Assembly: GCA_050084515.1 (NCBI GenBank)
Contig: CM114271.1
Coordinates: 24,056,001 to 24,120,000 of the forward strand
Direction: 5' to 3'
Length of the DNA: 64,000 nt
Origin: Blasia pusilla
Lineage: Eukaryota
In this document: in pieces, positions 41,800-64,000 of the stretch
Position numbering within the stretch: position 1 is the stretch's first letter
How the letters are laid out: each line of letters begins with the position of its first letter
Made by a program: the position numbers and the translations under genes
Notes under the pieces: generated by a model
What the model was told of the DNA's origin: nothing
Database searches by the model: none
The model's input: the letters and a program-made list of their open reading frames with translations, nothing else

Positions 41800-44700
41800 A
41801 GACTCAAGGGACAAAGATGTGCGTAGAACTCTTACTCATATTTGCTCCTTGCTACGACCTTGTTGTGATGGGAGATGGAATTCCTCTCATACAAGCCGTG
41901 TCCTCACTATTAGCTTTAGAAGCAATATTTGAACCTAAGCTCCCATCCAAGCATGATGGCTCTTCCACCTTCAAGACCTCTATCATCAAGGCCATGTTGA
42001 CGAGATGTTCGGAAGCTCTATTCTACTCCTCTAGTCTCTTGGATCTCCTTGGATGTGTAACAACTTCATCAGTTGTTGGTGGATCCTTACCATCCAAGAG
42101 CTGCTTTATCCACTTAGGGTATGACGACCGTAGTGGAAGAGCAAGTTGCTCTTTGTAATCATCACCAAATTCTTCTTCTTGATGATCTGGTGTAAAAATT
42201 TGTGGTGTGCTCTTGTGGGTTATCTCTTCGTTTGATGATAATATGGACGGACCACTGATATCCGCCACTTGACGAGGTTGTTCCTGGAACATTACATCAC
42301 GACTCACAAGCATCTTCTTTTCCTCAAGACACCAAAGGCGATAAGCTTTAGACTCATCACTGTATCCCATAAAGATGCACTTCATGCTCTTGGACTCCAG
42401 CTTGGTCCTAGATGCTTCAGGAATATGTACAAAACACTCACTACCAAAAGTCCTGAAATGTTGGACTAATGGTACCTTACCTGAGTATGATTGATGAGGA
42501 ATCATGCCTTGCACTGACTTGGTAGCACTTCTATTTAGAATGTATACGGCGTGATAATGACTTCAACCCAAAATCCATCATCAAACCTTTTGCTTTCATC
42601 ATACATCTTGCCATCTCCACCATTATGACGGTTTGACGCTCAACAACTCCATTTTGTTGTGGTGTATGTGCCGTGGTTAACTGTCGCTTGATTCCATGCT
42701 CCCCCAAATATTTGTTGAATTCTGTTGATAAGAATTCTCCTCCTCGATCGGTGCAAAGCTTTTGTACCTTCTTTCCTATCTCATTCTCAACCAGCTTGTC
42801 CCATACTTTAAATTTTCCAAAATCACTTGCCTTATCACGAAGGAAATACACCCACATCTTCCTACTATAATCATCGACAACTAAAAAGAAGTAGGAAGAA
42901 CCACCTAATGCCACTGTTCTCATTTTACCATAGAGGTCAGCATGTATTAACTCTAGAGGAGCCTTTGCCCTATTGCTGGACTCTTGTGGAAATGGTTGTC
43001 AGTGTTGCTTGCCCATCATACAAGCTTCACAAGTATCCGACACTCCATAAATTGTTGGTAAATCAGCAACAATGTCAGATTTCTGCATCTGACTTAGTAA
43101 GGGAAAGCTTAGGTGACCAAATCTTTCATGCCACAACTTACTGCTACTTAGATATGTACCTACACTTGTCGTGAAAGCATACAGCTCGTAGATATTTCCA
43201 CGTCGTATACCTTCATCCACTACTTTCCCATTGGCATCCTCAATGACAACTCCAGTTTTCTTGAAACGAACCTCTAGGTCATGATCACATAATACTGCCA
43301 CTGAAATCAAATTTCGCTTCAACTCTGGTACGTACAGTACATCAGTTAACTTCTTTTCATCTCCTTTTTGTGAGACTAAAGAAATTGTGCCTTTCCCTTC
43401 TATAGGGCACTTTGCATTATTCCCAACAGTAACAACGATGGGCTCTTGTAGAGGCTGTAAGGAGCTATACCAATCCTTATGATTGGTCATATGCTTAGAT
43501 GCTCCACTATCGAGCACCCATGCATCTTCACTCTTTGACTTAGTGGAATGTTTTGCCTGTGTGCAAAACTCTTCTATTGCTACCCAAGCATCTACTTCAT
43601 GTTCTTCTAGTTCTACAGAATTTCCACACTCCTTCTTAGGTCTTAAACAACCGTTCTTCTCATCCTGACTCCTCTTTCTACAATCTTTGATAAGATGACC
43701 TAGCTTACCACAATAAAAGCATTTGAAGGCTTTTCTTGGAAATTTCTTCTTGACATTTGAATTGTAATCCTGATTTCTACCTCTCTGTACGTTGGCAGTT
43801 AATGCTGCATCACTTCCCTCTCTTGCTTTGAAGCGCATTTCCTCTTCTATCAACATTGCACTAAATTGTTCAAAAGTAAGTGGCGTGGGTCTTACTTGAG
43901 TATTCAGTGCAGTGACCAAACTGTCATACCTTGGAGGCAAAATCCTTATGCACCGACGTGCCAAATCTTCGCTTGACTTTGAAATTCCTACGGACGCCAT
44001 CTCATCTTGAAGATTCTTGATCCTTGTCAAAAATTGCTCCGCGCTTTCTCCTTCTGAAAATTTCTCGGACGTAAGCTGATTCTCCAGATTCTGAATTCGA
44101 GTCTCATTCCTCGTTTCATAATGATTCTTCAAAATGTTCCACGCCTCAGCAGTAGTGGTTGTATGTTGAATGAGAGTCATGACATAATCAGTTATATTTG
44201 TGACAATCGCATATAGAGCATCAGCACTTATGCGTCTCCATGCCAACAATACAACATGATCAATATCCCCAGATGAAGATGAACATGCAGAACTCAAACT
44301 AGCTTGTGGATTTGAATCGACCCTTGTGGCCGTTTCCCAAATCTCAAATGATTCGAGGACAGTATAGTTAGACCCATTTTGAACTTCCACAACGTATAGT
44401 TAGACCCATCTAACTTCCCTTCACCCAGCGGAGGAGGGCGAGCACGAACTGACGAAGAAGTAGCCATCTCTCAAGATTTTGTGCAAACACACTAGATCGC
44501 CATATACAAAATACTGGAAAACCTACTGCTCTGATACCATGTGAGAAAACATAAAGTGACGAAATCATTGAAATCTTTGCAAAACTTAGAGATACAAAGT
44601 AGCCTAGTCTGTTCGTGCGCTCACAGAAGAGCTTCGATGGAACCTGAATTGGAAGATAACTCGACATACTAGAATGCGCTACCGCTGCGGCTCGACTATT

Positions 44701-45974: not shown

Positions 45975-46814
45975 TCACAAGGAGGTAAAATCAGTTGTAT
46001 ATGTATGCAATTGTAATGTATATGATGTGATTTGCCCAAATAAACAAAAATTTGTAGGCTGCAATGAACCAATGATGCGCAAGTGCTCTTTGGTTTTAAC
46101 TCTTGACAACGTAACATACACTAGATTTGGTGCAAAAGCAACTTTTATCACAAGAAGGCATTTCCCTGATACAGTTAGACCTTGGCTCTTATGGCCAGTT
46201 AATGCATAACCCAAGATAAGTGGAAAAGGACTCTTATGGTACTTTTTCTTGACCATGCTTAAGCGTCACAAAGTTGGTGTGACTTATCTTAATTACTTTA
46301 TAATTTGAATGTAACATAACCGTTATATTGGCAAGTTCAGAATCCTTGTAACCACAATCAATAATTTCCGATGCACCATTTGCAGCTTGAATTTGGTCTA
46401 TATTTGAAGTGAGTAAAACTGTCCAGCCAATTGCAAGGAACTGAAGCTGATGGAAATTTGGCTTAGATATCCAATCATGGAATTGCGCATCAAGAGGAGT
46501 GTCAATAGAGATATGGACAATAAATATGTCATATGAACCATATAACCTATGAGGTGCAAAAACATTATAAATTTGGACATCAGCACAATGTGAACATTTG
46601 ATTATGATATCTTCTTATATAAAGTCTATACCAACATCTTCCTCAACAAAACACTTCTCAAGACATGTGTCTATTTGCTGCTATGTAGGTCTTGTTAGTA
46701 TAAGTTGCAACAAAAACGTGAGAAAATCATGGTCCTCATCATGCCTCATGGGTGTATGTAATTCATACTTAGAATGTTTCTAAAGAAGGGATGTGGCACA
46801 CTAGACACATTGAT
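45975..46814 (-). mobile_element. Helitron Rep/Pif1 helicase pseudogene, C-terminal part
   Basis: ELHTPMRHDED (motif IV-like), NGASE, PFPLILGYALTGHKSQGLTV (motif V) and VYVTLSRVKT (motif VI). Confidence 0.88.
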
Positions 46815-47379
46815 GGGGGCTGGTATTTTGGCAGGAGAGAGTAAGAGAGGAGAGGAAGAGAGGAAGAGAGGAGAGTCTCTCTTCAAAAAAAAGGGCCAAA
46901 TCCGCCTCCTCTCTTCAAAACTTTTTGACATATTTGAAACTTTTTGTTTGCTTTCAAATTCAGGAAATCTTTAGAAGAGAATATTTAATGGTCCACATTT
47001 GGCCCTAAAAAAACCTCCTCTTTCATGGGGGCAAGAAAAAAGGAGACATCATAAGACCACTACAAACATTTTTCCATCACTCTCCATGTGAGCCTAAGTT
47101 TCTTAACATTCCCTGTCTCGATAAAAAAAAAAGCAGTGCCCTTGGTATTTTTGTTGGAGGACCACTCGGATGCCAACCTCTCTTTTTGCAGGGATTGTTG
47201 CCTGCATCATGGCCTCCCCTAAATTGCCCCATAACCAACTTTCTGTTGGTTATGAATGGTGTCTACTCAAGACCAACTTTGTGAAATGTGAACACATCAG
47301 ATCCTAAGGCTGAGAAACCGAGAAGCTGCACCCCTCCCAACCCGTAAGAAAGCTCACCATAAGAAAGGAAAGATTTTTA

Positions 47380-48536
47380 GAAGTGATTTTCTTCCACCAC
47401 GCACTCCACGAGGATGTAACGGGTTGGGAATCCGAAATGGCAATCCGGCGGGTAGTAGGAATCATGCACATCTTAGACAAGAAAAGAAGCCTACAAGCTG
47501 GTTTGACGAATGTAGGGAACGAGCAAAAGTTAAGAAGCCCGCCACTATGTGTCGGTTGGTCTCACAGGAAAGAGTCCGATCACTCAGCGATCAACCTGCC
47601 GAACCGGCAACTTGCTTGGAAATGGTTAAAAAGTTGCAGTGGGAAAAAAGCAAAAAAGTTGCAACCCGTCGGAATCATACGGGTTGCAGAATTGTAATTC
47701 TGAGTAGCTAAAAGAACACAATCCACAAGTCCAAAAAAATATTCCAACAAACTTTTACAAACACCATTATGGGTTGAAAAAATCTCGTCCTTTATTACCT
47801 CCGAAGGAACCTTGGAAATGTACATTTGACCCAGTCTATGATTTCTTCAGCCTCGTCATTTATAAATTTACTCCTAACTCTCCTCGGTGACAGTACCAAA
47901 GGAAAGTCTTGGGATACAAGTGGCTCCTCTGGCCGATTGTAGACGGGGATTGAAAATGTTGGCGAATTTGAGAGTCTTGGCCCCCCCTAGGTACACCATA
48001 ACGGTCCCATGTAACCTGATTTGAGTCCCACCGCCTTCCTCGGCAGTATACCTTGTACACTCTGCAATGTGACACCCATCCAATATCAATATGTGCTCCG
48101 TCCCCGGTAATACCATTATGGCAATCGCACAGGTAGTAGGAATCCAACACGTCTGAGAGAAGAAAAGAAGCAAACGTCTGCCTTTACAAGTTGAGGGGAA
48201 GGTGCCAAGGGAAGAAGCCCACCAGACTGCCTCTTAAGTTGGACCAACAGGGAAAGAGTCCGATCAGGCAACCTTTCGGAATCCGACTGGTTGCCAAGAA
48301 GTGGTAAAAAGGTGCAGTGGTCAAAAAGTGAAAAGTTGCAAGCAAGAGAAATCCGACGGGTTGCAAAATAGAAGTCTGCGGAGTACATAGACGATCACAT
48401 TCGAAAAGACAAAAAATGTTCAGCAAACTTTTACAAGCACTACCATCGTTCGAAAAAAATCTTACGCTTTATATCATCCGAAAAAGCTCTGAATCAGACA
48501 TTTGATCTATTCTATGAAATCTTTTGCCTCATCATC
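47380..48536. repeat. Diverged tandem duplication (~680-bp period) in the MULE left arm
   Basis: 47568-47860 aligns with 48251-48536 (ggaaagagtccgatca...aagttgcaa...caaacttttacaa.cac...tctatga..tctt..gcctc.tcat). 47437-47490 aligns with 48118-48171. Confidence 0.75.
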
Positions 48537-49182
48537 AAAAAATCCCTACTCCAAATGCTACAGTCAAGATGGGTCGTTGAGTTCTTTGAACTCACTCGTC
48601 ATTGTCCGAGAGCTCTTGCAAAATTACTTTCGGCCTTGCCCTCCCGATTGTCGAAATTGTTGGAAGTGACGATGGAGTCACTACCAAGGGTGGATCTGGA
48701 ACCGGAGCTCTCGGCTTCGGTGGAGACTTGTACGCCCCAACGAGCCTTTCGTATTCTGCCTTTTCCTCCTTGCAAAGGTCAAACAGTTCCTGCCTTCCCT
48801 CGAGGCAGAGAATGTTCCTGCCACTCTGCTAGGCACCTTTGATACTTGCCCCTGAAAGTCCCACTAAGTCGAACACCAAGTCACCCGGCCTTGAGCAGAG
48901 CTCGATGAGCGTTTGCATCAGGGCTGGCAACTTTTCCCTTCCTCCCAGAAGTGGGGTACTGTCTTACATGTAAATTCTTGGGGGGGAATTGTACAAACTA
49001 TCTAAGCTGTACCCATCTGAGCATGGATCCACAGGATCCTGGATCTTGAACACCTGGAAATTGTGCTCGGGCCGAACGAAGCAGTACACGTAGGAGTGGT
49101 CCATCTGTAAATAAGCACGTTGGAAACAATGTCAGCAACTAAAGAAGTCGGCTTGAGAACATTTTCAATTACTAACTTTGGA

Positions 49183-49435
49183 TCAACCTGTTGGAGTCCG
49201 ACGGGTTTTTTTGTCCCGGACCAACCCGTCGGGCTCCGTTATTTTTGTCCGTGAGCCTAGAGCAGCCCATGCTCGCCTGAGAGCAACCCGTCGCTATCAG
49301 ATGGGTTGCAGCTTTCCGGAAACACAGGGAAAAACCAAAAGCAACTGCAACCCGTCGGAACCCGACGGGTTGCAAGTACACCACGGTTTTCCCTACACTA
49401 AGCCAGCAACCCGTCGCCTTCCAACAAGTTGCTCA
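49183..49435. repeat. Cluster of the ~27-bp palindrome in intron 3 of the cargo gene
   Basis: For example tgcaacccgtcggaacccgacgggttgca at 49346-49374; about five degenerate copies. Confidence 0.85.
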
Positions 49436-51584
49436 CGGAAAAAAAAAAATGGAGATTGACACTCATTATACTCACTCAATGGAGATAAACACTCATTATA
49501 CACATCATTAAAATATATTTGAGATTATAGTACAGGAATTGAGCCTTACCCGAATCTGACTCGTCGCGGATCGGAGTGGGTACTCGTTTTTTATGATCCA
49601 CGATTGCGCCGTCCTCCACTTTAGCGACCTCTTGACGCACTAGAGGTTGAAGAGCTCGTCCTCGCTCCCTCCAGTCAACACCAAGAAGCAGCCCCTGTCA
49701 CTCAGATAGGCGTCTGCAAAGGAGAACAATAGCGCTATCTGGTCATAAGAGAGCGGCACATTCCACTCAGGTACCTCGTCCGATGGATTCTCGCCCCAAA
49801 GTCGCAACCCCGAGGGCAGATCAGTGATCAAGAGATCCACCGCAACCTCTTCGACCACTCCATTCACCGTCCAGGCAGCATGCCTGTTTTGTTGGAGCTT
49901 CCGTCCCAGCGTTGTCAATTTATCGATGGCTGGTGTCGACGCTTGAGAACTGAACCTCTTCAGCTCATCGAGTAAAGGAGTGAACTGAAGGAGGACGCTT
50001 GTCCGGGTTGTTGTTTGTCTGTGTCTTCCCAAGGTTGATGGACTGTATTCTCCTTGGGACAACCCTGGCACCTCTCGCTTCCGCTTCTCCCGAGTCAGGA
50101 CGGCTTGTCGGGGTCTCTATGACCTCAGACTCTGGTGGGGTTTTTTTCGCCGAGGACCTGGTCCGACCCCTCTCCCCCGCCGCCGGACAATTCCGCCTCT
50201 GGCCTTGAATCTTCAGCCTCTCTTTGGGAAGACTCGGCCTCTGAATTTTTCCCTCCCCTCGCCTTGCCTTTGAGATCCACTGTGGATTTGTCTTTGGCTG
50301 TGCGGACCTTGGAAGCCAACTCAGCTGTCTCGTGGGCTTGCTCTTCTGCATCTCCTTCGAAGAAGTCTTCAGGCTACACGAAATTGGGGATGTCGTCTTA
50401 TCTTGAGGCCACTGCATCATGAAGCACTCGTAAATCCTTATCAGTGATGTCTTCAGGGTTGTTGAAGTCGAGCCAAATGGAGCAATTCTCCACCTCCCAA
50501 TCGGACATGTGGTGCCCCATCTCCATGTCGTACATGGAGAATGTCTCTGCATCCGGCGGCGAAGCCCACAATTTCAAGGCTGCCAGTAATTTTCCCCACG
50601 TACCTGCATTCTTACACTGGACGAGGTACCTGAAGACCATCCGTTGGGCAGCTTTTAGTCAAACAGAATTGGCCGTCTGCTCTTGTAGATCTCGCTTCTT
50701 CTTCGCTTGATCCCGTTTGTTCCCCTCTACTCCTTCGTCAAGCTATGCATGAGGAAGGACGCAAAACTTGAACATTGTCTTGAATCGTGGGTTTTTGGTT
50801 GGCTTGTCCCGATTTTCGTCGAGCCAAACCTCGAAATCTCCAGAACTTTCAAGGTTTGCTTCATCCGGGATGGGCTCTAATCTTTTGAGCTCCCCTTGCA
50901 GACCGTCCAGCACGGACTTCCCGATAACCCGCAACGCATCCCATAACGACCATTCGCGTAGCCAATGGGAGATCACTGGATCGGACACACCGGAGGATGG
51001 TGTGCCGCCCTCTTCTGGGCCTCTGTGCCCTCGACACTGATTTTCATCAGTCGGATCCTCCTAAACTCGCTTATGCCGGACAACGCAAACCGATGCACGC
51101 GATCCAGGGACACTCTCTCCCCAATCCAACCATGCGGATCTTCATCCCTTTTCCACTGGGGCTTGATAATCGCCTTCAGCTCCTTGTAGAACCCCGGACC
51201 AAGTTCGGGGTTGAGAATGCTGATGTATCGCTGCATCTTGCTCGCCGTGTATTTCGTTGCTGTAGATACTGCAGCTTGGATGAATTTCGCGCGCTCAGAC
51301 GCAGATACCTTCTCCCTCCACTCCAGCTCCTGTGCAGCGCTCTTTTTCGCGGCATGTATCTTCGACCAGCAAAGGATGGTTACGGCTGCATCTTGGGAAA
51401 TAAACTTATTTGCCCAAGTTTTCTTTTTAATCTGAGCACCCTTTGCAAGCATTTGATTGACAAGGGCATTGCCCAAGAACCCCCTGTACTCTCCCGGGTG
51501 CGTCGTAAGCACCTTCCTCACCCGATCGCAGTCCTGGATCCAGTGGTGGGTGACATTCCCCTCCGATACAATCCTGCACATCCA

Positions 51585-52315
51585 AACTCAACCCGTCAGG
51601 AAATTACATGGGTTCTTGCAACTCGTCGGACTCCGACGGGTCGTCACAGCTCAAGGTCGTATTCTAGGAACGAGCTAAATGATGCAACCCATCGGAGTCC
51701 GGCGGATTGCATTCAGATTTGCTAATGCCTGGTTTCAACCCGTCGGACTCCGACGGGTTGTGGAACTGAACATACTAACGTGAACATAGCAACCCGTCGG
51801 AGTCATACAGGTTGCGCAATTGAATGGAAACTTGCAATTTGACGCAAAATTTGGGGAACCAACTTCCGAACGCAACCCGTCGGACTCCGACGAGTTCATT
51901 TTGGCCAAAAAAAGTTTCGAGGCAAGCAACCCGTCGGACTCTGACGGGTTGCTTTGGGCAAAAAACATACTAAACCTGCGGTCAGTCGAACAACTCGTCG
52001 GAGTCTGACGAGTTGCATTCTTCAAAAAACATCTTGACAAGGCGGCGAGTCGAGCAACCCGTCGGACTCCGACGGGTTGCTTTGGGCCAAAAACTAATTA
52101 AATCTGTGGTCAATCGAACAACTCGTCGGAGTCCGACGAGTTGCATTCTTAAAAAAACATCCGAAAAAGCGTCGAGTCGAGCAACCCATTGGAGTCCGAC
52201 GAGTTGCTTTCGGCAAAACAAAACCTAACCCATTCATCAATCGAGCAAGTCGTCGGAGTCCGACGAGTTGCGTAAGTGTTAAAGTATCCCAACAACCGTC
52301 CCGACGAGTTGCGTA
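51585..52315. repeat. Phased array of the palindrome GCAACCCGTCGGACTCCGACGGGTTGC in intron 2 of the cargo gene
   Basis: Copies at ~51618, 51684, 51736, 51789, 51872, 51926, 51991, 52054 (perfect), 52118, 52181, 52245; period of 63-65 bp in the right half. Confidence 0.92.
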
Positions 52316-53954
52316 AGTGTTAAAGATACTCACGTGTTCATGGCATGCATTGCCATCTCCACCGTCGCCATGTGATGAGGGAATGGGTGAAGGACCACTG
52401 CCTTCACGCTAAAATGTGCCTCCAATGAGTTGGGCCGCACCTCCACAAACTTGGTCCACGCCATGAACCTATGATTTCCATCCCAGATGAAGAAATGCAG
52501 ATTCCTCATCCAGCTGAATTCCGTGCCCTCTACTTGCCTTCTGAAATCCCGGTCTCGCATCCTCCAGAATGTGTCGAGCTTTTCCAAGTCCTCCTCTGTA
52601 ACCAGAGCTTGGGTTCCATGCTCGTCGTAAGGCTGAACATAGAAGGGAGGAAAGCTGTCGACGTAGGATGCTGTCACCGCCGATTGTTTAAGCTTCGCGA
52701 TGTCCTCGTCGGACTGAATTTTGCGGACGTATTCTATTGTCCGCAATCGGCAGAGTGGAATCCTCGAGGTGTTGTGGCCCTCCATGAGTGCCATCTGCTT
52801 AACCACCTGTCAGAACCGGGAGAAGATCAATAAGCTACACTAAATGTCACATAATTTATTGGGAATACACTGAATTCCCAATAAATTATGTGAATTGCAA
52901 TTCACATAATTCAAAAAACCCAGATCCTCTCTTACCCGCTCGAAAATGGGCTCGGTTTCTTGACCAACCAACTTGTCTAAGACAGAAGCTGGCAAATCGA
53001 CTGGGAACTCGTCGATCCGATAGAGGTCGATATCCTCCGCCGGGCTTGGAGACGAGAATGACCGCTCTCCGGCTTCTTCGGCCATGTCCACCATCTCCAC
53101 ACTAGTGGTCCTCATGACCTCGTCGTCATCGATTTAAACTTCTGGCGTTTCCACTATGTTGATTGTGTCCCCGGACTTCATGGGGGACATTTCCCGCATC
53201 TCAACACTTTTGGTTGGAAAGGCAGGGCTATCATCAATGGCTATCGGTTTTTCCCTCCTCGCTTTAGCCAATTCTGCTCTCCTCACCGACGCGTCCAGAT
53301 GCTTCTTTTCTCTCTTTTCGTCGGCGATCCTTTTCTTCAAGGCCTGCGACGTCTCAGCCTCTGCGTTCTGTTTATCGAGCACGTCTTGAACACGTCTCGC
53401 AAGAAGCACTTGGTTGTGCATCTCCGCTTCCCTTTCCCGCTCCTCGATTTCCTGCTGCCTAATTTCATTTGCCAAACGAGGCCCAAGAGATGCTGACGCA
53501 GGAGTCCTAATGGACTTCGGAGTGAAGCTCTGAGACTTGTTGGCTTGTTATTTTTTCCTCGTCATTTTTTCCGAAAATGCCTCCACCTATGTCCACGACG
53601 AATCCCTTGATTAGTCGCCTTGCTGATGTCGAGATGTGTAGCTCGAATCGCCTTGATGGGTAGCTTGAATTGTCTCGAGATCGTTCAGTCGAACCGTCTC
53701 GCTGTCGTTCGGTCGAACTGTCTCGCTCTCGTTACCTCCAATCAACTCGCGATGTGTCGCCGTGTGAAACGCCCCTTCGTATCTGATCACCTGCTGCGCG
53801 GGAGAGTGAGGAATGAAGATCGCGAAATTAGAAACAAAAAATGAGCGATTTTTGCCCTATTTATACTTTTCTAGCCGTTGGGCTGACCGTTGGATCCCGT
53901 CGTCCGTTCGACGGCGACGTGCCGGAGGTTACGGAAGTCCGGAGGTGAAAAATG

Positions 53955-54555
53955 GCAACCCGTCGGAGTCCGACAGGTTGCGCGCCTCCGCCATCCTAGG
54001 TACGTCGCCACGTGCGCGAGCAACCCGTCGGAGACCGACGGGTTGAGCGCCTCCGTCGTCTTCGGAAAAGAACGCGAGGTACCCGCGCAACCCGTCGGAG
54101 ACCGACATGTTGCGCGCCTCCACCGTGTTTGGGACGGGAACGAGACGTACCCAGGCAATCCGTCGGAGACCGTTGGGCTGCACGCTTCCCTCGTCAAGGG
54201 TTAAGAACGTGGGCTTCCCGTGCAAGTCGTCGGAGTTCGGCTGGCTGCACACTTCATGTAAGCACCACAAGGCGAGGCCCTTGCGCAACCCGTTGGAGGA
54301 TGACGGGTTGCACGCCTCGCCGTCTTTGGGCAAATAGGTGAGGCACCCACGGAACTCATCGGGAACAGACGGTTTGCACGCCTCGGGCATCTTCAGGCAA
54401 GAAGGAGCGGTATCCGAGAAACTCGTCGGAGAGCGACAGGTTCCTCGTTGTGACAATGTTTGGCAGAAGCGTGCAACCCGTCCGAAGCCGACGGGTTGCA
54501 GGCTTTGGTTAGCTTCGGGTAATTTTTGAGTTACTAGGACTCTGACGGGTTCCAA
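53955..54555. repeat. Phased palindrome array in the divergent promoter region between the cargo gene and the transposase
   Basis: Copies at ~53956, 54020, 54087, 54155, 54222, 54285, 54352, 54419, 54473, separated by ~30-bp diverged spacers. Confidence 0.9.
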
Positions 54556-54767
54556 GTGTGATTTGCAACCCTCTGCTTCCCAAATCCGGTAACATACTGC
54601 AACAGGATTGAATGTGTTACAGAATTGGATCCATTGTGTCAGACAATGTCACCCACCGAATTCATCTTGTAAGTAAAAATCTGTCAGGAGTATCTGTTTT
54701 CCTATTCACTATAAATTAAAAATTCTCATTCTCATTCTCAGTCTCCTCCCGTTGAAAAATTCTTGGA

Positions 54768-57700
54768 ATGGATAATTATGTGAAGCTCACTTGTGGCAAT
54801 CATGTGGCGGCCCTTCCTCAATCAGAAATCATTCGACCCCAAGCTCGTGAGTCTTTCATAGCAGTGGATGAAAATTTTCTGTCTGTTCGATTTCTTCTCC
54901 AAATTGGAACCATCTTTGTATCCAAAGATGTTAGGGTGGACGGTACGGAAGACATAATAGGTGAGACGGTCCAGCCAGTGACCTCAGACCGTAAAGTATG
55001 GAATCTCCTACCTCTAGCAAATGGTCAATACAGAGTTAACGGCTTGCCCCTGAATTTTTTTGTTTCCCAAGTAGACGGTCTAGAATTTCCTAGTGCTCCG
55101 AGCTCTACGTTTGCAACTCCAAGCTCTGCAGATCCGGCTTCGACTCCAACTTCGCACACTCGTAACAATGTTGTTCTTCTTGAAGAGATTCCGGATGTTA
55201 TCAACCTCAGTGGATCTGTCGGACACCAATCGGGCCCTCTACCCCCAACTCATTCCTCTAGGGAGTATCAGGAAATAGTTTGCTTTCGTCTCTCACCTTG
55301 AAAATGTTCAAGCACATTCTTGTCGACGAGCTGCCGCCCACGTACGATGGTAATTGCATTTTTGAGTTGCCTCCACTTGCTGCTCCTGCTCAAAAGAAGG
55401 ATGGAGGACGCCTCAAGGGTATGGACAAAAAGTCTAATTGTCATCGATGGTGCAGGCTTCAAGAGACTAGTGCTTCCATTCCATATGGTCCTTGGATTGT
55501 CTCCCGCCGCCAATGCGTGGGAGCCTTGGAGTGTAGAAGTCCAGCATGCCCGTATCCAGAGCGCAACGGGCGAGTCAATATGTCGCAATTCCCTCCCAAG
55601 AATGCAGAAAGTCCATACGAGGTCGGTGCCACCATACCGCCGGGAGGCCATTGATGTCCTCATTGTCAGGCATCGCCCTTCTGCGTTGGAGCGTGTCTTG
55701 CATACATATTTTTCATTGTCCACGACTTGGGCTCCACGTCAGAGTATACAAGGCTGGCAGTTCATGTTGGCTCCCACACTCATCCTGTGATCGATGCAAT
55801 TCAAAGACACATCAAGGAGGATGTGGCGAAGAAAGTAGCCGAGGTCTACAGAAACTCTCCGGGTTCAAAGCCCGGAGTGATCAAGCTCACAACGGCATCA
55901 CAAATTTATGAACAATTGCTTGGAATCCCGGGATAGGGCGAGATCACGGTGGTTGAGGAGAAACAACTCTGGGAAAATCTCCCATTTCTCGCTGATCCTG
56001 AATGCTTCCGGAATTTGCTACGTCAAATACGAGTTCAGGATGGAAAGACGGCCGAAATGGATGCCATCGCCAGAATCAAGGCCAACTCCAGATTTCCATT
56101 CATTCAGAGATGGCAGTTCATGGGCCAAGGATGCGAGGGATCCAGGGCCTATGTCTTCAAAATGTCAACCACAGGTCCGTCGAGTGGCCTCCATCTTATA
56201 GATCGAATGAGGGAAGGGGAAGATCTTTACGGGAGCTGAGTAAGCTTTGATATTTGCTACAGAGTCCTGAACGGATGGTTGACGATGGGTGCTCACGTTT
56301 ATGACCATGTGGAGAAGGGACTCAAAACTATATTTTTCTGTGAAGTAAAGGCAAAAGACGTTGGTAGTTTGAAGATGTGTTGGTTACTCTTATTGGAGGT
56401 GGTGAAGGAAAACAAAAGGCCACCTCCGGAAATTTATGGGTTCATGGCAGACAATGCACAACCTGGGTGGATTGCTATCCGGGAAGTGTTCTGGGGTGGA
56501 GGGGTTCAACCGGAGAGGGAAAGGTCGGATGCTTTCCATTGGAAACAGTCTGTGACCCGGTACACCAAATCTTGCATCAAGGAGAATAAGAGGACAGAGC
56601 ATCTCACTCTACTCCAACGCTGCAAGGACAACAAAACCTTGAAGCAGGCCATGGAATGCCAGGAAGAACTTCATGGGTGGTGGAGGAAGCATGCGATTGA
56701 GGGGAAGTACAAAGAGTTGTGCTCTTGGTTGAGTTGGTGGACTGTACGTATGAGACAATGGGGAAACTTCATGCGGCATGTGAGTTCACTATTTTGTCTT
56801 GTCAAGCTCACGCTGAGAATTATTTGTAAAGTTGTAGCTCAGGGTGAGAAGCGTGGGAACTATATGGATTTCAAACCCAAGAAACCAAGCAAGTTGTCGA
56901 CGGGTTGCCCGAGTGTGCAACCCGACGGAAACCGACGGGTTTCCCGAGTGTGCAATCCGACAGAAACCGACGGGTTGCCCGAGTGTGCAACCCGACAGAA
57001 ACCGACGGGTTGTTCGAGGGTGCAACCCGACGGAAACTGACGGGTTGCATCCATAATTTTGGTGCAACCCGAGTGTGCAACCCGTCGGGACCCGACGGGT
57101 CACAGAGTCGTTCATGGGATGCCTCGGCCTTGCAACCCATCGGGTTCTGACGGGTTGCAGTAGGTGGGTTTAAGGTTACAACATGTCGAGACCCGACGGG
57201 TCGCAGAGTCGTTCATGGGATGCCTCGGGCCTGCAATCCGTCTGGTTCCGACAGGTCGCTTATTTCTTTGACTCCTGAGTTATTTTCGTTCCCTTCTAAC
57301 ATTGCCGTCGTTGCAGGGATTGAACGTTCATGAAAATGCCCTCTGCCCCAACATAAGTGGAGCAGAAAGTGTTTATTCCTCCTGGAGGTTCTCACAAGCA
57401 TGCCAACGAATTTCACTTGTGGAGGCATGCCAACAAGACCAGGCAAGAGCAATGCTACAGTCTGCAGCATCCCATATCTTCCTCACAAAAGGCATAACAA
57501 AAGGAAAGGGGTCGTCGATCTATGAGCTCTATGTCGAGGCATTTGTGAGATCTCAGTGATGAAAAAATGTATGTGGAAGCCTTCAACCGGTCGCGAGCTG
57601 AAACTCCACTCGAGCAAGACGTACACATTGGTGGGGATATTCGTAGGCGGGTTTCAAGGCGTCCCATACTGAGATGGTGGTAGAGCGATCGAGCAAGACT

Positions 57701-58818
57701 CGTGGAGACCATATAAGTATCTTGACTTCAGGCAGGTGAAGAGGCAGCATCGAGGAACGAATCCGGTGATTGATTTGGATGAGGAAATTACGCCGCCCTG
57801 GTATTCGGGGACCCCGGACTTGTCCCAAATCTGTGATGGAGTTACTTCTCCAAAATCAGTGAATGTTTTATTTCAAAAGCTCTCCGTTGTTGGAAGTTCG
57901 CAACATCCTGTCACTAGGGTGGTTCAACAATATGGGATTTCGGTAATGGAGGTGGATTGCAACCTAAAACGGTGGCATATATCTCGGAGCAACCTAGGAC
58001 GTGGACCCACCTGCAGGGTAGGATCTGATGGCATTAGGAGGGCATGCGGCACTTTCCTAAATAAGAACTGTACAAGGACTAGACGACCACTGCCTGGGTT
58101 TTGAGGACTCAAAACCTTTGATCGCTTCACGAGGACCGGGATCAATTAAAGTACTTCTTCTGCCCAAATGAATCTTGCACTTTCCGGAAGTCTTATCCGG
58201 CTGCCATTGGAGCTCCCGGGAATACCCCCACGATTTGGCCCATCGCCGCAGTCTGAATCGCACTCAAGGCAAGTGGACAATCTTACAAGTGTCGGTTTCA
58301 CACTCGTAGACGGGGGAAGTTTGGAGCATGTTCGCATTACAGAGACCTTCCCATTTCATATTCAACCCAAGATTGATGTCAACATGTACCTGGAGAAGGT
58401 GGATGATCTCAATCCATTATTTCTGTTTGAGTCTAGAAATGGGGTGAAGAGAAACAGAATCTGCAGGCCAACGGTGGAGAGAGCAAAGTGAATTGCATAA
58501 GCTCGGGAGGCAAAAATGGAGATCATCGCCACGAAAGATGTCTTGAGTGGCAATGGAATAGGAAGGATGTATTGGGTCAGGAACAACACTGTAAATTCAA
58601 GTATCACAGGGGTGTATGTGGTGCACATCTGTTGCTTTCCCACACATTCATGTGATGACTTTGTCCAAAGAGAGACAAGTGGCAAAAGGTATTTCCCTTG
58701 TAAGCACATGTACTATGTGTTGCTGGTAGTTTTAAGAGAGTCGGAGGTAGGAGTAGGAATCCACCAACCAATTCTGTCCCTCAAAGAAGTTCGAAGTATT
58801 TTAAACAAACCACTTTGA
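54768..58818 (+). pseudogene. MULE-type DDE transposase with an N-terminal Cys/His-rich (GCM/WRKY-like) region and a C-terminal SWIM zinc finger; intron 56780-57316
   Basis: CVGALECRSPACPY..CPHC..VHVGSHTHPV; first Asp VSFD; second Asp FMADNAQ; DAFHW at the CxxH position; Glu region NISGAESVYSSW after the intron; SWIM-like HSCDDF..PCKHMYYVL. Stops at 55652, 55934, 56237 and frameshifts. Confidence 0.85.
56890..57255. repeat. 36-bp tandem repeat carrying the same palindrome inside the transposase intron
   Basis: Unit cgagtgtgcaacccgacggaaaccgacgggttgcc about four times, followed by further degenerate copies. Confidence 0.9.
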
Positions 58819-59215
58819 GGATGCAAAATGAGGTTTTAGATTGTACTTTTATTTTTTTCTCAACCTTCACTTTGAGCTTGAACTCTATTCAGCCCTGGGC
58901 AAATGACAGATTTTTTCCATACCTTGGATGGAAAAAGTGATTGGTTCCACACTTATGATTCCACTGATTTTTCAGTTTTCTAAATTTTGTGCAATTTGCA
59001 ACTCGTCGGACTCAGAGGGGTTGCCAAAATATGGAAGAGGAAAAAAAAATTGTGGGACTGCTTAATATATGAACAAAAAAGTGCAAAAAAAATCAAACAA
59101 AAATTTTCCTCGCTTCAACCCAACGAAAACTCTCTTAAAAAATATATATCTATTTCAGTTGAAGGTAGTTTCCTCTCTCCTCTCTTCCTCTCTTCCTCTC
59201 CTCTTACCGCACCTC

Positions 59216-60610
59216 CACATTGGTGTAATGTTATGGCGAGAAATGGATGGCAATTGGCAAAGATCACCTAGTAGTACAACAAGCTTCATTGAGGATGGGT
59301 TCAAATCTGAAGATGGACTAACTCAATGCAATCTCATCAAGTAAGTAAGTGGTCTAAGCATGGAGCACTCGTCTACAACTATTACCTTGGCATGTTTTAG
59401 GCGATTATACTGGTCAGACGTAGTGTGCATTGATGAAAGATCTCCCTTTATAGGTATGGCAAATGCGGAATGGACTGTTGTTGCTGATTCATGCAGTCTC
59501 ACAACAGCAATCCCGGTTGTTGCTATTAGCAATGTAGGAATGCAATTGTACGGAATACCAATACTTTTGCATAAAATGGATAAAGAACATTTTCCCGCAA
59601 CCAGGTGGTCCAGTGATCATTACTAAGCCAAGGCGCAATGTTCTGAATTCTTGATACAGAGCTGCTTGTTCAATGTTGAGAACATGAAAAAGTAAGGCAC
59701 TATCACCATCTACATAAGTTTGCTCATAGTTAGAAGTGGGCGGTTGTTGCTCAATAACAGGTGAGTTCGCACATACGTTGAATGAGAGTTGTGGATCAAT
59801 AAGGTCCATAACTTTTGTTGCAATCTCACTTATGTGAACCTTGCTCCATAGGTTTGCTACAGTATGCCGCTGTATTTCCTCTACAACAAAGCATGGGTTC
59901 TAAAATATGTTTCTATAAATACACTCATTGAGAAAGGTCCACTCGGGTGATACAATAGTGAGAATTTATGATTCTGATATGAATGTGATGTTTTGCAGTA
60001 CTGTATTATAAAAGAACTTATTTGATTGATGAAAGGGATGAAACTCACTAAAACGGACCAGGCGGTCAGTCTTATAGATCATGTTGCTAATTGAATCAAA
60101 TCCTATCAAGTTGGCAAGATTTTGTTTGCCTGTTCGCAGCACTTCATATATAGTCTTGAATTGAATAAAAGTTAAATCAGATAGATATATTGGGCGATAA
60201 CTATACAAAATTGTTGGATGGACGTATAGTGTAGTGGCATCTTTTTAAAACGTAGTTCGTCTACGAGGAGGACTTGAATCAATATATTCAACACTTTGGG
60301 ACCTATGGATGATCGGAATTTGGAGTGCCGTTATTGTTGCCTCAGTTACAGAGACCGATTTATTTAGCACCAAACCAGAGACAAGCCGGAGCTTTATCTC
60401 ATCCAATCCCTCAAGTCCTAGACACGTTGCACATTCAGTAGTGATGTTGAGGAAACCATGTGGCTCTGATTTTAGTGAGTATTTCAACAAGTAAAATGAC
60501 CATTGCACATCGGTGACACGTTGTAGATTCATATGAGCTCCCCAAAGCAGTAGTATAACTAGATGATAGGGAATAACATTCCAGTGCTCATGACCACGCC
60601 TATAGTATTT
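59216..60610 (-). mobile_element. Helitron Rep/helicase pseudogene, Rep C-terminus to helicase motif III
   Basis: VIPYHLVILLLWGAHMNLQRV..YLLKYSLKSEP (Rep tyrosine motif), ITGPPGCGK (Walker A), ATTGIAV, TTVHSAFAIP, IVVDECSM (Walker B) and GDLCQLPSI. Cut at 60610 by an LTR. Confidence 0.9.
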
Positions 60611-61370: not shown

Positions 61371-61551
61371 TCGCCCCTCTAGTTGGTGGTTAGATCCCTC
61401 TAACTCCAGATAGCCATCTATCCCTACCTATCATGACATACATCTCTCGGACGCTAAGAGCAAGAAGGTCGGGTGTTCATGTGGCCCAATCGTTAGTTGC
61501 CTTCTTGTCATCCATGTTATAGATATAATTCAGAATGTAGAACTACCTATT

Positions 61552-64000
61552 CTATGTACATCTGGGACACATCCATCGTCCTTGAGGAATCCTAGTGAGA
61601 GGAGGCGTCAAATATGCCATATGCCATCCTCTCGAACACCCATCACAGACTAGCATAGTGGCTACACCATGGGCAAAACCACACAACATACACCACAAGC
61701 CTCTAGTACCTATTGCTAAGCTCGGATCAACTGTACCGTAAATGTTCGGAAGATGACATGGCGCACAGTTACGCATATGGTCCTTCCAAACCATACCATT
61801 GCGTCCTTCCAATAAGAGAACATCAGACGGCAAAACCTCACGCACTCTCAAGATGGTGTGTAATGCAGTCACATCCAACGTCGTGGGTGTTGTTTGCTAC
61901 AAGTAGACATAGTCTCCCTGATGAAACCTCCGGATAGTAGGTTAATAACCACCTCCCCGAATAGTGACATACCTTAACGTATCTCGACGTTGCGCAATCT
62001 CCAAGTTCTCAAACGCCATGGGCATCACTCTCCAAAATAACTCAACCCTCAGAGAACATGTTCGCATCCAAACATCAAGGTCATCAAGGTTCAACACCTC
62101 ACCAACATCTCAACGAATGGCCGTAAGTAAATCTGGCTCTCAACCATAAAGCAACAAGTACGGTGAGAAAGACGCTAAGGATGCCTGCTTGGTGAATCTG
62201 TTTCCCATCGCCAACCATGGCAACTAAAGGTCCCAATCTCCTGGGTGACCTCTCTACAAGCCATACTTGCGTAATCCTCTCTTCACCGTCTGCACAACTT
62301 GCTCCGCTAGTCCATCCACCTCAGGATGATCTCGCGAAGTAGTACGATGGTCGATCAATGCCTGATCATGCAAGGCGTGAAACTCCCCGTGGAACCCTGT
62401 ACCCTGGTCTGTCAACACCTCAGCATGTGCGTCATAGTAGCTCAACACTCGATCTAGGAAGTAGCTCAACACACGTGTCCATCTCAAGTGAGGAAGCCCA
62501 ACGCTATTGTCCTTGTAAACGAAGAAGCACTAAGACTCCCTCACTTGCTTTGTCATGCAATGCATCCAACTCTATCCACTTCGAGAAGTGCTCGACCATC
62601 ACCAACACATAACGACTATGATGCTCCGTCAAAGGCAAAGGTCCTACAAAATCCAAACTCCATCTATAACCTAAACCCATGATCTGAAGTGGATGCAACA
62701 TTGGAGTCGCAGCATTGAACCATGCTCGGACTCAATCACACACCATGCATCTGGCAACAAACTATTGAACGTCAGTCTCCATGCCTCACCACCAATATTG
62801 AATCTGGAGTAAGTTGTACGTCCGCTTCACTCCAAAATGACCCAACTCCTCATGGACATGACGCACCAAATGTGCACTCTACGAAGGATGAAGCACTACA
62901 TGCACTCTACCATTCTCCCACACTCGCAGCACATATGTGCCATCCCACCGGAACCGTCTGGCTTGTTGTAGGATCCGATCCCGCTCTCTAGCATCCACTA
63001 TGCTCGCAACGCTACGAGTACGCAAGTACTCCAAGACCACTCTATCGTCGTGAATATCTTGGCCACCTTTCGTCTCCTTACCGGCCTCTGGATCTAAGGA
63101 CTCTTCATCAGACCTCGCCATCGAAATGTCAACAATCTGGCTCTCCATAGCCAACAAGCCCAAATAGGCTGACGGTTGTCATTCTGGCACCAACTCCTCA
63201 TCACTCTCACCATGCCAACGAGCTCCAGTCGGATCTCGCTAACTTGGGCATGGGTTACGCTCAAACCATTTGTATCTTGGTTGAGCATCCCAAGTCTATG
63301 CACCACATGGAGGTCATACTCCTGCAGTAAAAGAGCCCATCTTGCAAGCTTCCCTATAAGCTTTTCGGACTCCATCGACCACTTAAGTGGCTGATGATTA
63401 GTAATGATGGTAAAGGGATTGCCGAATAGATAACATCTAAGATGTACGATAATCCACATTGCAAAAAAGCACTCACCCTCATACGATCTATACTTCACCT
63501 CTGCAACGTTGTTCGAGCGACTAGCAAAAGCCAACATGAACTCTCTACCATCATCATCATGTTGGGTGAGGACGGCTCCAAGCCCCAACATGCTCCAATC
63601 GGTATGCAATTAGAAATGACGCCCCTTGATCAGTCTCCTCAATATGGGCGCGGACGTCAATTTGTCCTTGAGCATATGAAATGCTCTCTCTTGCTCATAT
63701 CCCCAGTGCCATTCCTGATCCACCTTGGTCATCAAGGTTAGCGGCTTCGCAATCGAACTGAAATCCTTAACGTACCATCAATAGAAGTTTGCCAATCCCA
63801 TGAATGCACGAACTCGACTCACATCTGTAGGGCGTGGAATGCGTGAATAGCCTCGACCTTCATCTGCTGCATATCAATACCACCAGGATATATCGTATGA
63901 CCCAAGTACTCAATGTGGTCGTAGAAGAACTTGCACTTGCCTTTATGTAGCTTCAGCCCATATAACTACAATCGTCGAAACACCCCCTCTAGATGTCGCT
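61552..64000 (-). mobile_element. Ty3/gypsy pol pseudogene (RT-RNaseH-integrase) ending in a PHD finger; continues beyond the window
   Basis: RT LKLHKGKCKFF..EYLGH; RNaseH HTDWS..LGAVLTQ..YEGEC..TNHQPLKW; integrase HEELGHFG..CMVC, WSLDFVGP, LTDQG, DGLAE; C-terminal CMLC..MLVCDGCSRGWHMAYLTPPLTRIPQGRWMCPRC. Confidence 0.92.

What the first reader, a model, noticed from the sequence alone, without database searches (positions are those of the whole stretch)
53955..54555. CRISPR-looking phased palindrome array in the bidirectional promoter
Seen: about nine copies of GCAACCCGTCGGAnnCCGACGGGTTGC(gcgcctcc) at a ~64-68-bp period, with ~30-bp spacers far more diverged than the repeats. They sit exactly between the two divergent genes. 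Inference: selection keeps the palindrome and its spacing (about six helical turns) while the spacers drift, as expected for a cooperative binding platform (parS-like or VANC-target-like) that controls both genes.
Basis: partly seen in the sequence, partly recalled or inferred. Interest (0 to 1): 0.8.

Follow-up and report, generated by a model that had tools for sequence, protein, structure and literature searches.

The report
ParB-type binding palindromes in plant transposon
The repeats are not CRISPR: they are one cluster of a 27-base palindrome spread through a plant DNA transposon whose second gene resembles the bacterial DNA-clamp protein ParB fused to a DNA-methyltransferase-like domain, so they are probably the sites where that protein lands on its own element.

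Summary
The array is real: nine 27-bp palindromes at 53955-54499, between two divergent TATA boxes. It is not CRISPR, and helical phasing is not supported. The same palindrome occurs 37 times in the window, all in introns, the intergenic stretch or 3' flanks of a 12.4-kb Mutator-type transposon (8-10-bp target duplications; at least 150 copies). The element's second gene encodes a ParB-fold domain with the GxxR motif, a helical domain whose modelled relatives align with ParB/Noc/KorB DNA-binding domains, and a beta-class N6/N4 methyltransferase-like domain lacking the catalytic aromatic residue. Distant relatives carry their own 22-26-bp palindromes: a shared TCGG-nn-CCGA core with family-specific arms that follow the protein tree (22 of 46 loci; 50 sites near the gene, 1 in far flanks). 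Twenty cargo-less MULE loci of the same genome lack both. Best reading: parS-like loading sites for a dimer of the cargo protein, acting like VANC. Binding and effect are inferred, not shown. ParB+methyltransferase cargo genes and adjacent inverted-repeat arrays are already proposed for algal transposons; a land-plant lineage with a defined, co-varying site was not found in ten literature searches.

The parts
46815..59215 (.). Whole Mutator-type (MULE) DNA transposon, 12.4 kb, decayed copy of a high-copy family
   Evidence: Homology to other copies stops at these positions; shared ends; coordinates
46806..46814 (+). Left copy of the 9-bp target-site duplication
   Evidence: 8 of 9 bases match 59216-59224; 7 of the 8 copies with both ends show 8-10-bp duplications with 0-2 mismatches (read by eye)
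59216..59224 (+). Right copy of the target-site duplication
46815..46880 (+). Left end with a short, degenerate purine-rich terminal repeat; holds no 27-bp palindrome
59165..59215 (-). Right end, imperfect inverted counterpart of the left end; holds no 27-bp palindrome
47661..48364 (.). Three palindromes 3' of the cargo gene
48592..49104 (-). Cargo exon 4: C-terminal half of the beta-class N6/N4 methyltransferase-like domain (degenerate motif I)
   Evidence: PF01555 E 3.4e-5 in a sister copy; PHROG DNA methyltransferases E about 1e-6; splice sites
49183..49432 (.). Five palindromes in cargo intron 3
49550..51573 (-). Cargo exon 3: helical ParB-type DNA-binding region, linker, and N-terminal half of the methyltransferase-like domain (motif IV D-L-P-S); broken by frameshifts and stops in this copy
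   Evidence: 25% identity, E 8e-15, to Riccia P0144
51618..52271 (.). Eleven palindromes in cargo intron 2 (modal period 64 bp)
52334..52806 (-). Cargo exon 2: ParB/Srx-fold nucleotide-binding domain (D-G-N-H-R, GxxRxxA)
   Evidence: structures of relatives
52936..53565 (-). Cargo exon 1: charged, probably disordered N-terminus; one stop in this copy
53858..53865 (-). TATA-like box of the cargo gene, kept in sister subfamilies
53955..54499 (.). The reported array: nine palindromes in a decayed 67-bp tandem unit
54710..54716 (+). TATA-like box of the transposase gene
54768..56779 (+). Transposase exon 1: Cys/His-rich region resembling GCM/FAR1-type domains and the first two acidic motifs of the DDE core; stops and a frameshift in this copy
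   Evidence: Atlas leads FAR1/GCM/MULE at 0.84-0.93, no Pfam hit
56917..57259 (.). Eight palindromes in the transposase intron (periods 35, 46, 55 bp)
57317..58818 (+). Transposase exon 2: putative third acidic residue and C-terminal SWIM finger; one frame change near 57700 is unresolved
   Evidence: SWIM E 0.026, below cut-off
58998..59024 (.). Single palindrome 3' of the transposase gene

Best explanation
The palindromes are loading sites for a dimer of the element's own cargo protein, as parS is for ParB or OB for KorB. Shown by sequence: the sites are two-fold symmetric, confined to non-coding parts of the element, kept across subfamilies, and replaced by other symmetric sites in other families. 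Predicted by modelling: the cargo has a ParB nucleotide-binding fold followed by a ParB-type DNA-binding domain. Inferred: two cargo subunits read the two half-sites (shared TCGG core, family-specific outer arm), close into a nucleotide-dependent clamp, spread along the element, and keep it and both divergent promoters accessible against CG/CHG silencing, as VANC does for VANDAL. The methyltransferase-like domain then acts mainly as a binding or shielding module, because its catalytic motif lacks the aromatic residue. The promoter array is the densest GC-rich cluster of such sites, multiplied by tandem duplication. I put cargo binding at about 0.8 and the activating or anti-silencing outcome at about 0.6 given binding.
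For: 37 of 37 palindromes lie outside inferred exons, which make up about 58% of the element. Spacers of different arrays are unrelated (local scores 11.7-12.7, shuffled 10.8-12.1) while the palindrome is the same. Palindromes are conserved like exons between subfamilies whose cargo dS is 0.2-1.8. The cargo is under purifying selection: dN/dS 0.09 (ParB, 550 codons), 0.19 (DNA-binding region, 955), 0.12-0.15 (methyltransferase, 775). GxxR motif: G in 72, R in 68 of 78 aligned sequences. Models of two Riccia relatives align over nearly the whole N-terminal plus DNA-binding region of ParB/Noc (Z 8.1-8.5, rmsd 5.4-6.2, 179-199 residues). KorB is the top hit among 48,161 chains (Z 7.8, rmsd 7.0, 196 of 201), and isolated ParB, KorB and SopB DNA-binding domains also appear (Z 4.3-5.5). 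In distant relatives, TCGG-core palindromes occur in 22 of 46 distinct loci: 50 sites in 231 kb near the gene, 1 in 116 kb of far flank, 2.4 in shuffles, best of 64 cores; arms group with the ParB tree. 0 of 20 loci of other MULEs in this genome carry the cargo, and they hold 1 weak site in 200 kb. VANC precedent: PMC5735166 (passages read).
Against: No binding, expression or methylation data. Fold scores are modest: no Foldseek hit reached E 0.001 and Z 7-8.5 is near the tool's background for helical proteins; the models are of relatives 25-36% identical, not of this protein. Genomic copies show no local protection from deamination: CG decay is 5.1-6.2% in the arrays and 4.4-6.6% in exons. 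24 of 46 distant loci show no core site (many are short or decayed), and the core was chosen. The spacer of the 67-bp unit is almost as conserved as the arms (78% against 84%), so concerted evolution explains part of the conservation. The Glu-Arg of the canonical GERR box is Asn-His here (canonical motif recalled), and nucleotide preference cannot be predicted from sequence (PMC12704722, passages read). Only 4 of 31 long distant loci show the transposase.
Confidence: 0.5

Rival explanations
1. Same binding, but the effector is an active methyltransferase: the clamp carries the enzyme along the element and writes 4mC or 6mA, marking the element as self or blocking 5mC. This is the hypothesis in print for algal elements.
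For: The domain matches beta-class enzymes (DpnA-like E 5e-4, CcrM, RsrI, a 4mC enzyme), is under purifying selection, and keeps Asp/Asn and the second Pro of motif IV in all 25 instances that a pattern requiring them retrieved. One fern protein has D-V-P-F. Many site centres read GANTC, GGATCC or GGCGCC.
Against: Only 3 of those 25 instances have an aromatic fourth residue (one DVPF; two NVPW from near-identical loci). Motif I is degenerate in this family. The centre of the palindrome is its least conserved part (position 13: 72%; 15 different central pentamers in 37 sites). MpDN4MT1 has TSPPY (bioRxiv 2021.02.12.428880, passages read).
Confidence: 0.17
2. Same binding, but the outcome is restraint or architecture: KorB-like long-range autorepression of the two promoters, or ParB-like bridging that brings the ends of a 12-kb element with weak terminal repeats together for transposition.
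For: KorB is the top structural match and silences at a distance as a sliding clamp (PMC11790492, passages read). Sites are spread from 0.85 kb inside the left end to 0.2 kb inside the right end, and the terminal repeats are short and degenerate.
Against: The family reached at least 150 near-identical copies, which fits an activator better. Neither repression nor bridging explains the retained methyltransferase-like domain.
Confidence: 0.15
3. The transposase, not the cargo, binds the palindromes, as AtMu1 transposase and Spm TnpA bind and activate their own elements.
For: A MULE transposase alone binds and hypomethylates its family (bioRxiv 10.64898/2026.08.24.746577, abstract and one section read). 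This transposase has a Cys/His-rich candidate DNA-binding region. Transposase and cargo travel together, so co-descent cannot separate them.
Against: AtMu1 binding peaks at the terminal repeats, whereas these sites are absent from both termini. Twenty loci of cargo-less MULEs lack TCGG-core sites, though those MULEs belong to other transposase clades. A strictly two-fold site suits a ParB-type dimer.
Confidence: 0.1
4. The palindromes act as hairpins or cruciforms (in DNA or intron RNA), or are a self-amplifying minisatellite with no binding partner.
For: One palindrome folds at -9.7 kcal/mol as DNA. Arms change symmetrically between families. A spacer inverted between two palindromes in one copy shows template switching. 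Spacers within an array are homologous.
Against: Within the family 74 pairs change on one side only; 10 change on both (6.8 expected by chance), 7 of them compensatory. One sequence is kept at seven unrelated places in the element. Distant relatives keep dispersed, irregularly spaced single sites. Rfam gives only sub-threshold miRNA-like hairpin hits.
Confidence: 0.07
5. A CRISPR array or CRISPR-derived repeat.
For: Palindromic repeats of 27-35 bp with 30-40-bp spacers at regular spacing.
Against: Spacers are homologous to each other and the same in 30 genomic copies. The neighbours are intron-containing transposon genes. No cas family was hit by the flanking reading frames scanned and no CRISPR repeat family by Rfam.
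Confidence: 0.01

Closest known systems
Ectocarpus Sola1-1_Ec32 accessory gene (PMC12477816, passages read)
   Same: A DNA transposon with an opposite-strand gene of about 1,100-1,200 aa joining a ParB-like domain to an N4-C/N6-A methyltransferase domain, proposed to bind and modify its own element.
   Different: Brown alga and Sola1 superfamily; no binding site is described in the passages read. Here the host is a plant, the element a MULE, the site is defined, and motif IV is degenerate. Direct homology to that protein was not tested.
Bostrychia Plavaka PAG3/PAG2 (bioRxiv 10.1101/2025.02.11.637652, section 8 read)
   Same: ParB-domain accessory gene with adjacent tandem arrays of inverted repeats, proposed as its targets; family massively amplified.
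   Different: Red alga, EnSpm/Plavaka; ParB is fused to a 2OG oxygenase and the methylase is a separate gene. The section read reports no shared core or co-variation of sites. Its supplements could not be read.
VANDAL/VANC of Arabidopsis (PMC5735166, passages read)
   Same: Mutator-type element with an accessory gene; family-specific motifs accumulate as tandem repeats in introns, intergenic and terminal non-coding regions.
   Different: VANC motifs are 8-9-bp and the paper never calls them palindromic (0 hits for the word); no VANC-related Pfam family was hit here. Anti-silencing is shown for VANC, not here.
Bacterial ParB-parS, Noc-NBS and KorB-OB (PDB 7bm8, 6sdk, 7ng0, 8qa8; PMC11790492, PMC12704722)
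   Same: ParB nucleotide-binding fold with GxxR followed by a helical DNA-binding domain; several palindromic sites spread over the replicon.
   Different: No parA neighbour; large insertions in both domains; sites of 22-27 bp against about 13-16 bp (parS and NBS lengths recalled); C-terminal methyltransferase-like domain in place of the dimerisation domain.
Phage ParB-N6_N4 methyltransferase fusions and beta-class enzymes, including MpDN4MT1 and chlorophyte ParB-HTH Dam (PMC12704722, PMC4738411, bioRxiv 2021.02.12.428880; passages read)
   Same: Same two domain types; beta-class motif order (IV before I).
   Different: No close prokaryotic or viral relative of the ParB exon was found, and the catalytic motif departs from [DNS]PP[YFW].

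Membership tests
CRISPR array | Unique, unrelated spacers that differ between loci | tested here: not met
   Spacers are homologous within the array and shared by 30 copies
CRISPR array | cas genes nearby or a known repeat family | tested here: not met
   No cas hit in 17 window frames and 10 sister-copy frames; no CRISPR family in Rfam over 46500-59500
Mutator/MULE transposon | 8-11-bp target-site duplication | tested here: met
   7 of 8 copies with both ends, 8-10 bp, 0-2 mismatches
Mutator/MULE transposon | MULE-type DDE transposase with WRKY/GCM-type and SWIM fingers | tested here: inconclusive
   Motifs visible by eye; SWIM E 0.026; no PF10551 hit; Atlas leads FAR1/GCM/MULE 0.84-0.93
Mutator/MULE transposon | Terminal inverted repeats, long or degenerate, starting with G | tested here: met
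   Short degenerate repeats, both ends begin with G
ParB-CTPase clamp proteins (ParB/Noc/KorB) | ParB/Srx fold with Box II GxxR | tested here: met
   G 72/78, R 68/78; Z 6.0-7.1, rmsd 3.1-3.6 to PadC, a Pnob8-like ParB domain and Srx
ParB-CTPase clamp proteins (ParB/Noc/KorB) | Helix-turn-helix DNA-binding domain after the N-terminal domain | tested here: inconclusive
   Models of relatives align over both domains (Z 7.8-8.5, rmsd 5.4-7.0); DNA-binding-domain-only hits Z 4.3-5.5; consistent but modest
ParB-CTPase clamp proteins (ParB/Noc/KorB) | NTP binding, dimer clamp closure and sliding from a palindromic site | not testable with these tools
   Needs biochemistry; the complex predictor was not available
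ParABS partition system | Adjacent parA ATPase gene | tested here: not met
   The element holds only the transposase and cargo genes
Beta-class N6-A/N4-C DNA methyltransferase | Fold and motif order IV before I | tested here: met
   Profile hits DpnA-like, CcrM, RsrI, 4mC enzyme; PF01555 over its cut-off at 4 genomic places
Beta-class N6-A/N4-C DNA methyltransferase | Catalytic motif [DNS]PP[YFW] | tested here: not met
   D-L-P-S here; aromatic fourth residue in 3 of 25 instances
VANDAL/VANC anti-silencing system | VANC-family protein | tested here: inconclusive
   No Pfam family other than PF01555 on cargo exons; no direct comparison with VANC was run
VANDAL/VANC anti-silencing system | Family-specific motifs in non-coding regions | tested here: met
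VANDAL/VANC anti-silencing system | Protein-induced hypomethylation in trans | not testable with these tools
   Indirect test negative: no reduced CG/CHG decay at arrays
Algal transposon ParB accessory genes (Sola1-1_Ec32, PAG3) | ParB-like domain plus DNA-modifying domain in a DNA transposon, with inverted-repeat arrays | tested here: met
   Architecture matches
Algal transposon ParB accessory genes (Sola1-1_Ec32, PAG3) | Sequence homology to those proteins | not tested
   Their sequences were not retrieved

The most novel reading that the evidence does not exclude
Land-plant MULEs have carried, since at least the split of liverworts and ferns, a eukaryotic ParB-type sliding clamp: a nucleotide-gated dimer that loads at family-specific palindromes, slides through the element, and uses its methyltransferase-like domain to write 4mC/6mA or to shield cytosines from silencing. 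Each family has its own site code on a common TCGG core.
Probability: 0.3. Interest if true: 0.88.

Novelty: new variant of a known kind. Interest (0 to 1): 0.64.

Why it matters
VANC is the only transposon accessory system that the Bostrychia preprint lists as shown to bind and modify its own element; the ParB-type algal cases are untested proposals. This element names both partners, a protein domain and a 27-bp site, and gives a dozen natural protein-site pairs with one core and different arms, so binding, specificity swaps and nucleotide dependence can be tested directly. A positive result would put a ParB-type clamp at work on eukaryotic chromatin and help explain how a CpG-rich 12-kb element reached hundreds of copies in a genome that methylates it. 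Long programmable sites would also be of use for targeted anti-silencing.

Tried and rejected
Helical phasing: rejected (weighted R about 0.35 is flat from 10.0 to 10.6 bp and comes from two dominant periods). Copy-against-copy conservation: equal decay, uninformative on selection, and the copies were the best-scoring matches. Hairpin compensation: no excess. Methylation-protection footprint: none. Pfam does not recognise the ParB exon in any of 78 aligned sequences, nor does a PDB sequence search. Two word-based protein searches found nothing. No viral relative of the ParB exon and no exact palindrome in viral contigs; the one prokaryotic hit, L171, is near-identical to metagenome locus L129 and is probably plant contamination. 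The apparent 45%-identity transposase at L083 came from frameshifts: it is 70-79% identical and its cargo is truncated, so it does not separate the two candidate binders. RNA: no RNA holder listed and no read evidence was obtained, so splicing and expression rest on splice signals and on homology to annotated Riccia proteins. The complex predictor was not available, so the dimer was not modelled. Three look-ups of earlier scan findings returned nothing. Literature searches. None listed a land-plant MULE with ParB cargo; subscription journals, Repbase entries, Iyer et al. 2011 and bioRxiv supplements could not be seen and may describe such elements.

Full report
Observation. Nine copies of a 27-bp palindrome (13-bp arms, one central base) start between 53955 and 54473, mostly 63-68 bp apart, the last 55 bp. 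The same scan found 37 copies in the window, all between 47661 and 59024. The genome holds 522 perfect copies and none of the reversed control. In the majority sequence of 30 genomic copies, the first eight units share 79% in the palindrome and 50% in the spacer, against 44% for shuffled spacers.

The element. The region has at least 40 matches at 88-94% (40 of 1,944 candidates scored), and the ParB exon at least 150 at 92% or more (150 of 2,924 scored). Twenty copies fetched with flanks put the ends at 46815 and 59215. Seven of eight copies with both ends have 8-10-bp target duplications. The ends are short degenerate inverted repeats without the palindrome. The + gene looks like a Mutator-type DDE transposase with a Cys/His-rich region and a SWIM finger; this rests on motifs, weak Pfam and Atlas leads and on the duplication length. 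The window's copy is dead, with stops and frameshifts in both genes. Copies decay by C-to-T changes at CG and CHG, as methylated plant transposons do. The nearest named relatives are from the liverwort Riccia sorocarpa and the fern Adiantum nelumboides; I did not identify the host.

Where the sites lie. Canonical splice signals and protein continuity with annotated Riccia proteins place four cargo exons and two transposase exons. No RNA evidence was obtained. All 37 palindromes fall outside exons: 3 behind the cargo gene, 5 and 11 in cargo introns, 9 between the genes, 8 in the transposase intron, 1 behind it. The reported array sits between two divergent TATA-like boxes, the cargo-side one kept in six sister loci. 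Spacers are related within an array and unrelated between arrays, so each cluster grew by its own tandem duplication around the same motif. Periods vary from 25 to 75 bp with no common helical phase.

Is the motif selected? Between recent copies, palindromes and spacers decay alike (3.8% and 3.4%), which reflects neutral decay. Five subfamily loci give the useful comparison. Cargo dS is 0.2-1.8; palindromes are 74-85% identical, exons 73-90%, other non-coding DNA 60-84%, with palindromes above other non-coding DNA in 5 of 5, in one only barely. Inside the 67-bp unit the margin is small: 84% against 78%, arms higher in 20 of 27 units. Part of the conservation may therefore be concerted evolution, or the spacer may hold a second site.

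The cargo protein. The second exon found 141 relatives in the 50%-identity library. Their alignment keeps a Box I-like Arg (71 of 78) and G-N-H-R-x-x-A (G 72, R 68 of 78). AlphaFold models of two Riccia relatives are confident over this domain and the next 200 residues. Foldseek ranks Noc and ParB first, none at E 0.001 or better. Structural alignment covers 179-199 residues of ParB and Noc, that is both the nucleotide-binding and DNA-binding domains, at Z 8.1-8.5. In the wide search KorB is first (Z 7.8, 196 of 201) and isolated ParB-family DNA-binding domains recur at Z 4.3-5.5; for the longer model, generic helices shared the top ranks. The C-terminal domain matches beta-class N6/N4 methyltransferases, but motif IV reads D-L-P-S and only 3 of 25 retrieved instances have the aromatic residue. 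All three domains are under purifying selection (dN/dS 0.09-0.19).

Distant relatives. A metagenome scan returned the best 80 of 290 loci, 46 of them distinct. They carry interrupted, intron-like gene copies, so I infer plant DNA. Four of 31 long loci show a related transposase head-to-head with the cargo. A de novo search showed recurrent palindromes upstream of the ParB exon and in downstream introns, often irregularly spaced. They share a TCGG-nn-CCGA core, which has a 3-bp centre in this family, with symmetric arms that differ by family. A test of that core, chosen after seeing those calls, found 50 sites in 22 of 46 loci, against 2.4 in shuffles and 1 in 116 kb of far flank; it ranked first of 64 cores, the next having 12 sites. 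Only 7 of 46 loci had three or more. On a FastTree of 33 selected loci, similar arms group in supported clades; this shows co-descent, not causation. Twenty loci of six other MULE groups in this genome have no cargo and one weak site.

Mechanism. A two-fold site, a ParB-type protein in the same element, and family-specific arms together point to the cargo dimer as the binder. Within the family, changes are mostly one-sided (74 against 7 compensatory), which fits duplex reading better than hairpin pairing. By analogy with KorB (PMC11790492) the protein may load, clamp and slide; by analogy with VANC (PMC5735166) the effect may be to keep the element active. These steps are inferred. Against a lasting protective effect, arrays lose CG and CHG cytosines as fast as exons. 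Rivals are an active methyltransferase, repression or end-bridging, binding by the transposase (as for AtMu1; bioRxiv 10.64898/2026.08.24.746577), and a structural or neutral repeat.

Comparison and verdict. The kind is known as a proposal: an Ectocarpus Sola1 element has a ParB plus N4/N6 methyltransferase gene (PMC12477816), and Bostrychia Plavaka elements have a ParB gene beside inverted-repeat arrays (bioRxiv 10.1101/2025.02.11.637652). I read passages or single sections of these papers, not whole texts. Passages of PMC4738411, PMC12704722 and bioRxiv 2021.02.12.428880 gave context; PMC6431247 has no mention of ParB. Ten searches listed no land-plant MULE of this type and no defined site. 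This is a new variant of a known kind: it works like parS/VANC targets by inference, is not CRISPR, and is not a partition system. Interest 0.64, because the protein-site pairs make an untested idea directly testable.

Noticed in passing
window 54054 and 54252; sister loci L071-L074, L085-L086, L089-L090: The spacer of the 67-bp unit holds a second palindrome (10-bp arms, 6-bp loop), clear in sister subfamilies, almost confined to the intergenic array, and decayed in this family.
   Followed up: partly
L160, L164, L166, L170, upstream of the ParB exon: Distant relatives also have a second palindrome type, mostly on the promoter side; it could be the site of a second protein such as the transposase.
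   Followed up: no
window 47437-47877 and 48118-48555: A 440-bp internal duplication (69% alike) behind the cargo gene, each copy with palindromes.
   Followed up: no
L035, L039, L051, L075, L087: Copies of the element are often inserted into or beside other copies or sister subfamilies; a targeting preference was not tested.
   Followed up: no
window 52334 and many library hits: Many predicted relatives end at the same residue as the ParB exon, so the intron that holds an array here seems to be an old, shared intron position.
   Followed up: partly
palindrome centres, window and L095-L129: Centres often read GANTC, GGATCC or GGCGCC, which resemble targets of beta-class methyltransferases (target sequences recalled); the centre is the least conserved part.
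   Followed up: partly
L085, intergenic array: One spacer is inverted between two palindromes, a sign of template switching.
   Followed up: no
window about 43000-44540 and 61500-64000: Fragments that look like Copia-type and Ty3-type retroelements flank the element (read by eye).
   Followed up: no
L171: A contig of a cyanobacterial genome bin carries a ParB exon near-identical to L129, probably plant contamination of the bin.
   Followed up: partly
L187, L188, L193, L195: Two cargo-less MULE groups have their own recurrent spaced inverted motif, 4-6 copies per locus, unrelated to the TCGG core.
   Followed up: no
Atlas hits of the ParB exon: Fungal DUF3723 clusters score 0.95 (31% of members carry the family), a possible link to fungal mobile-element cargo (link recalled).
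   Followed up: no
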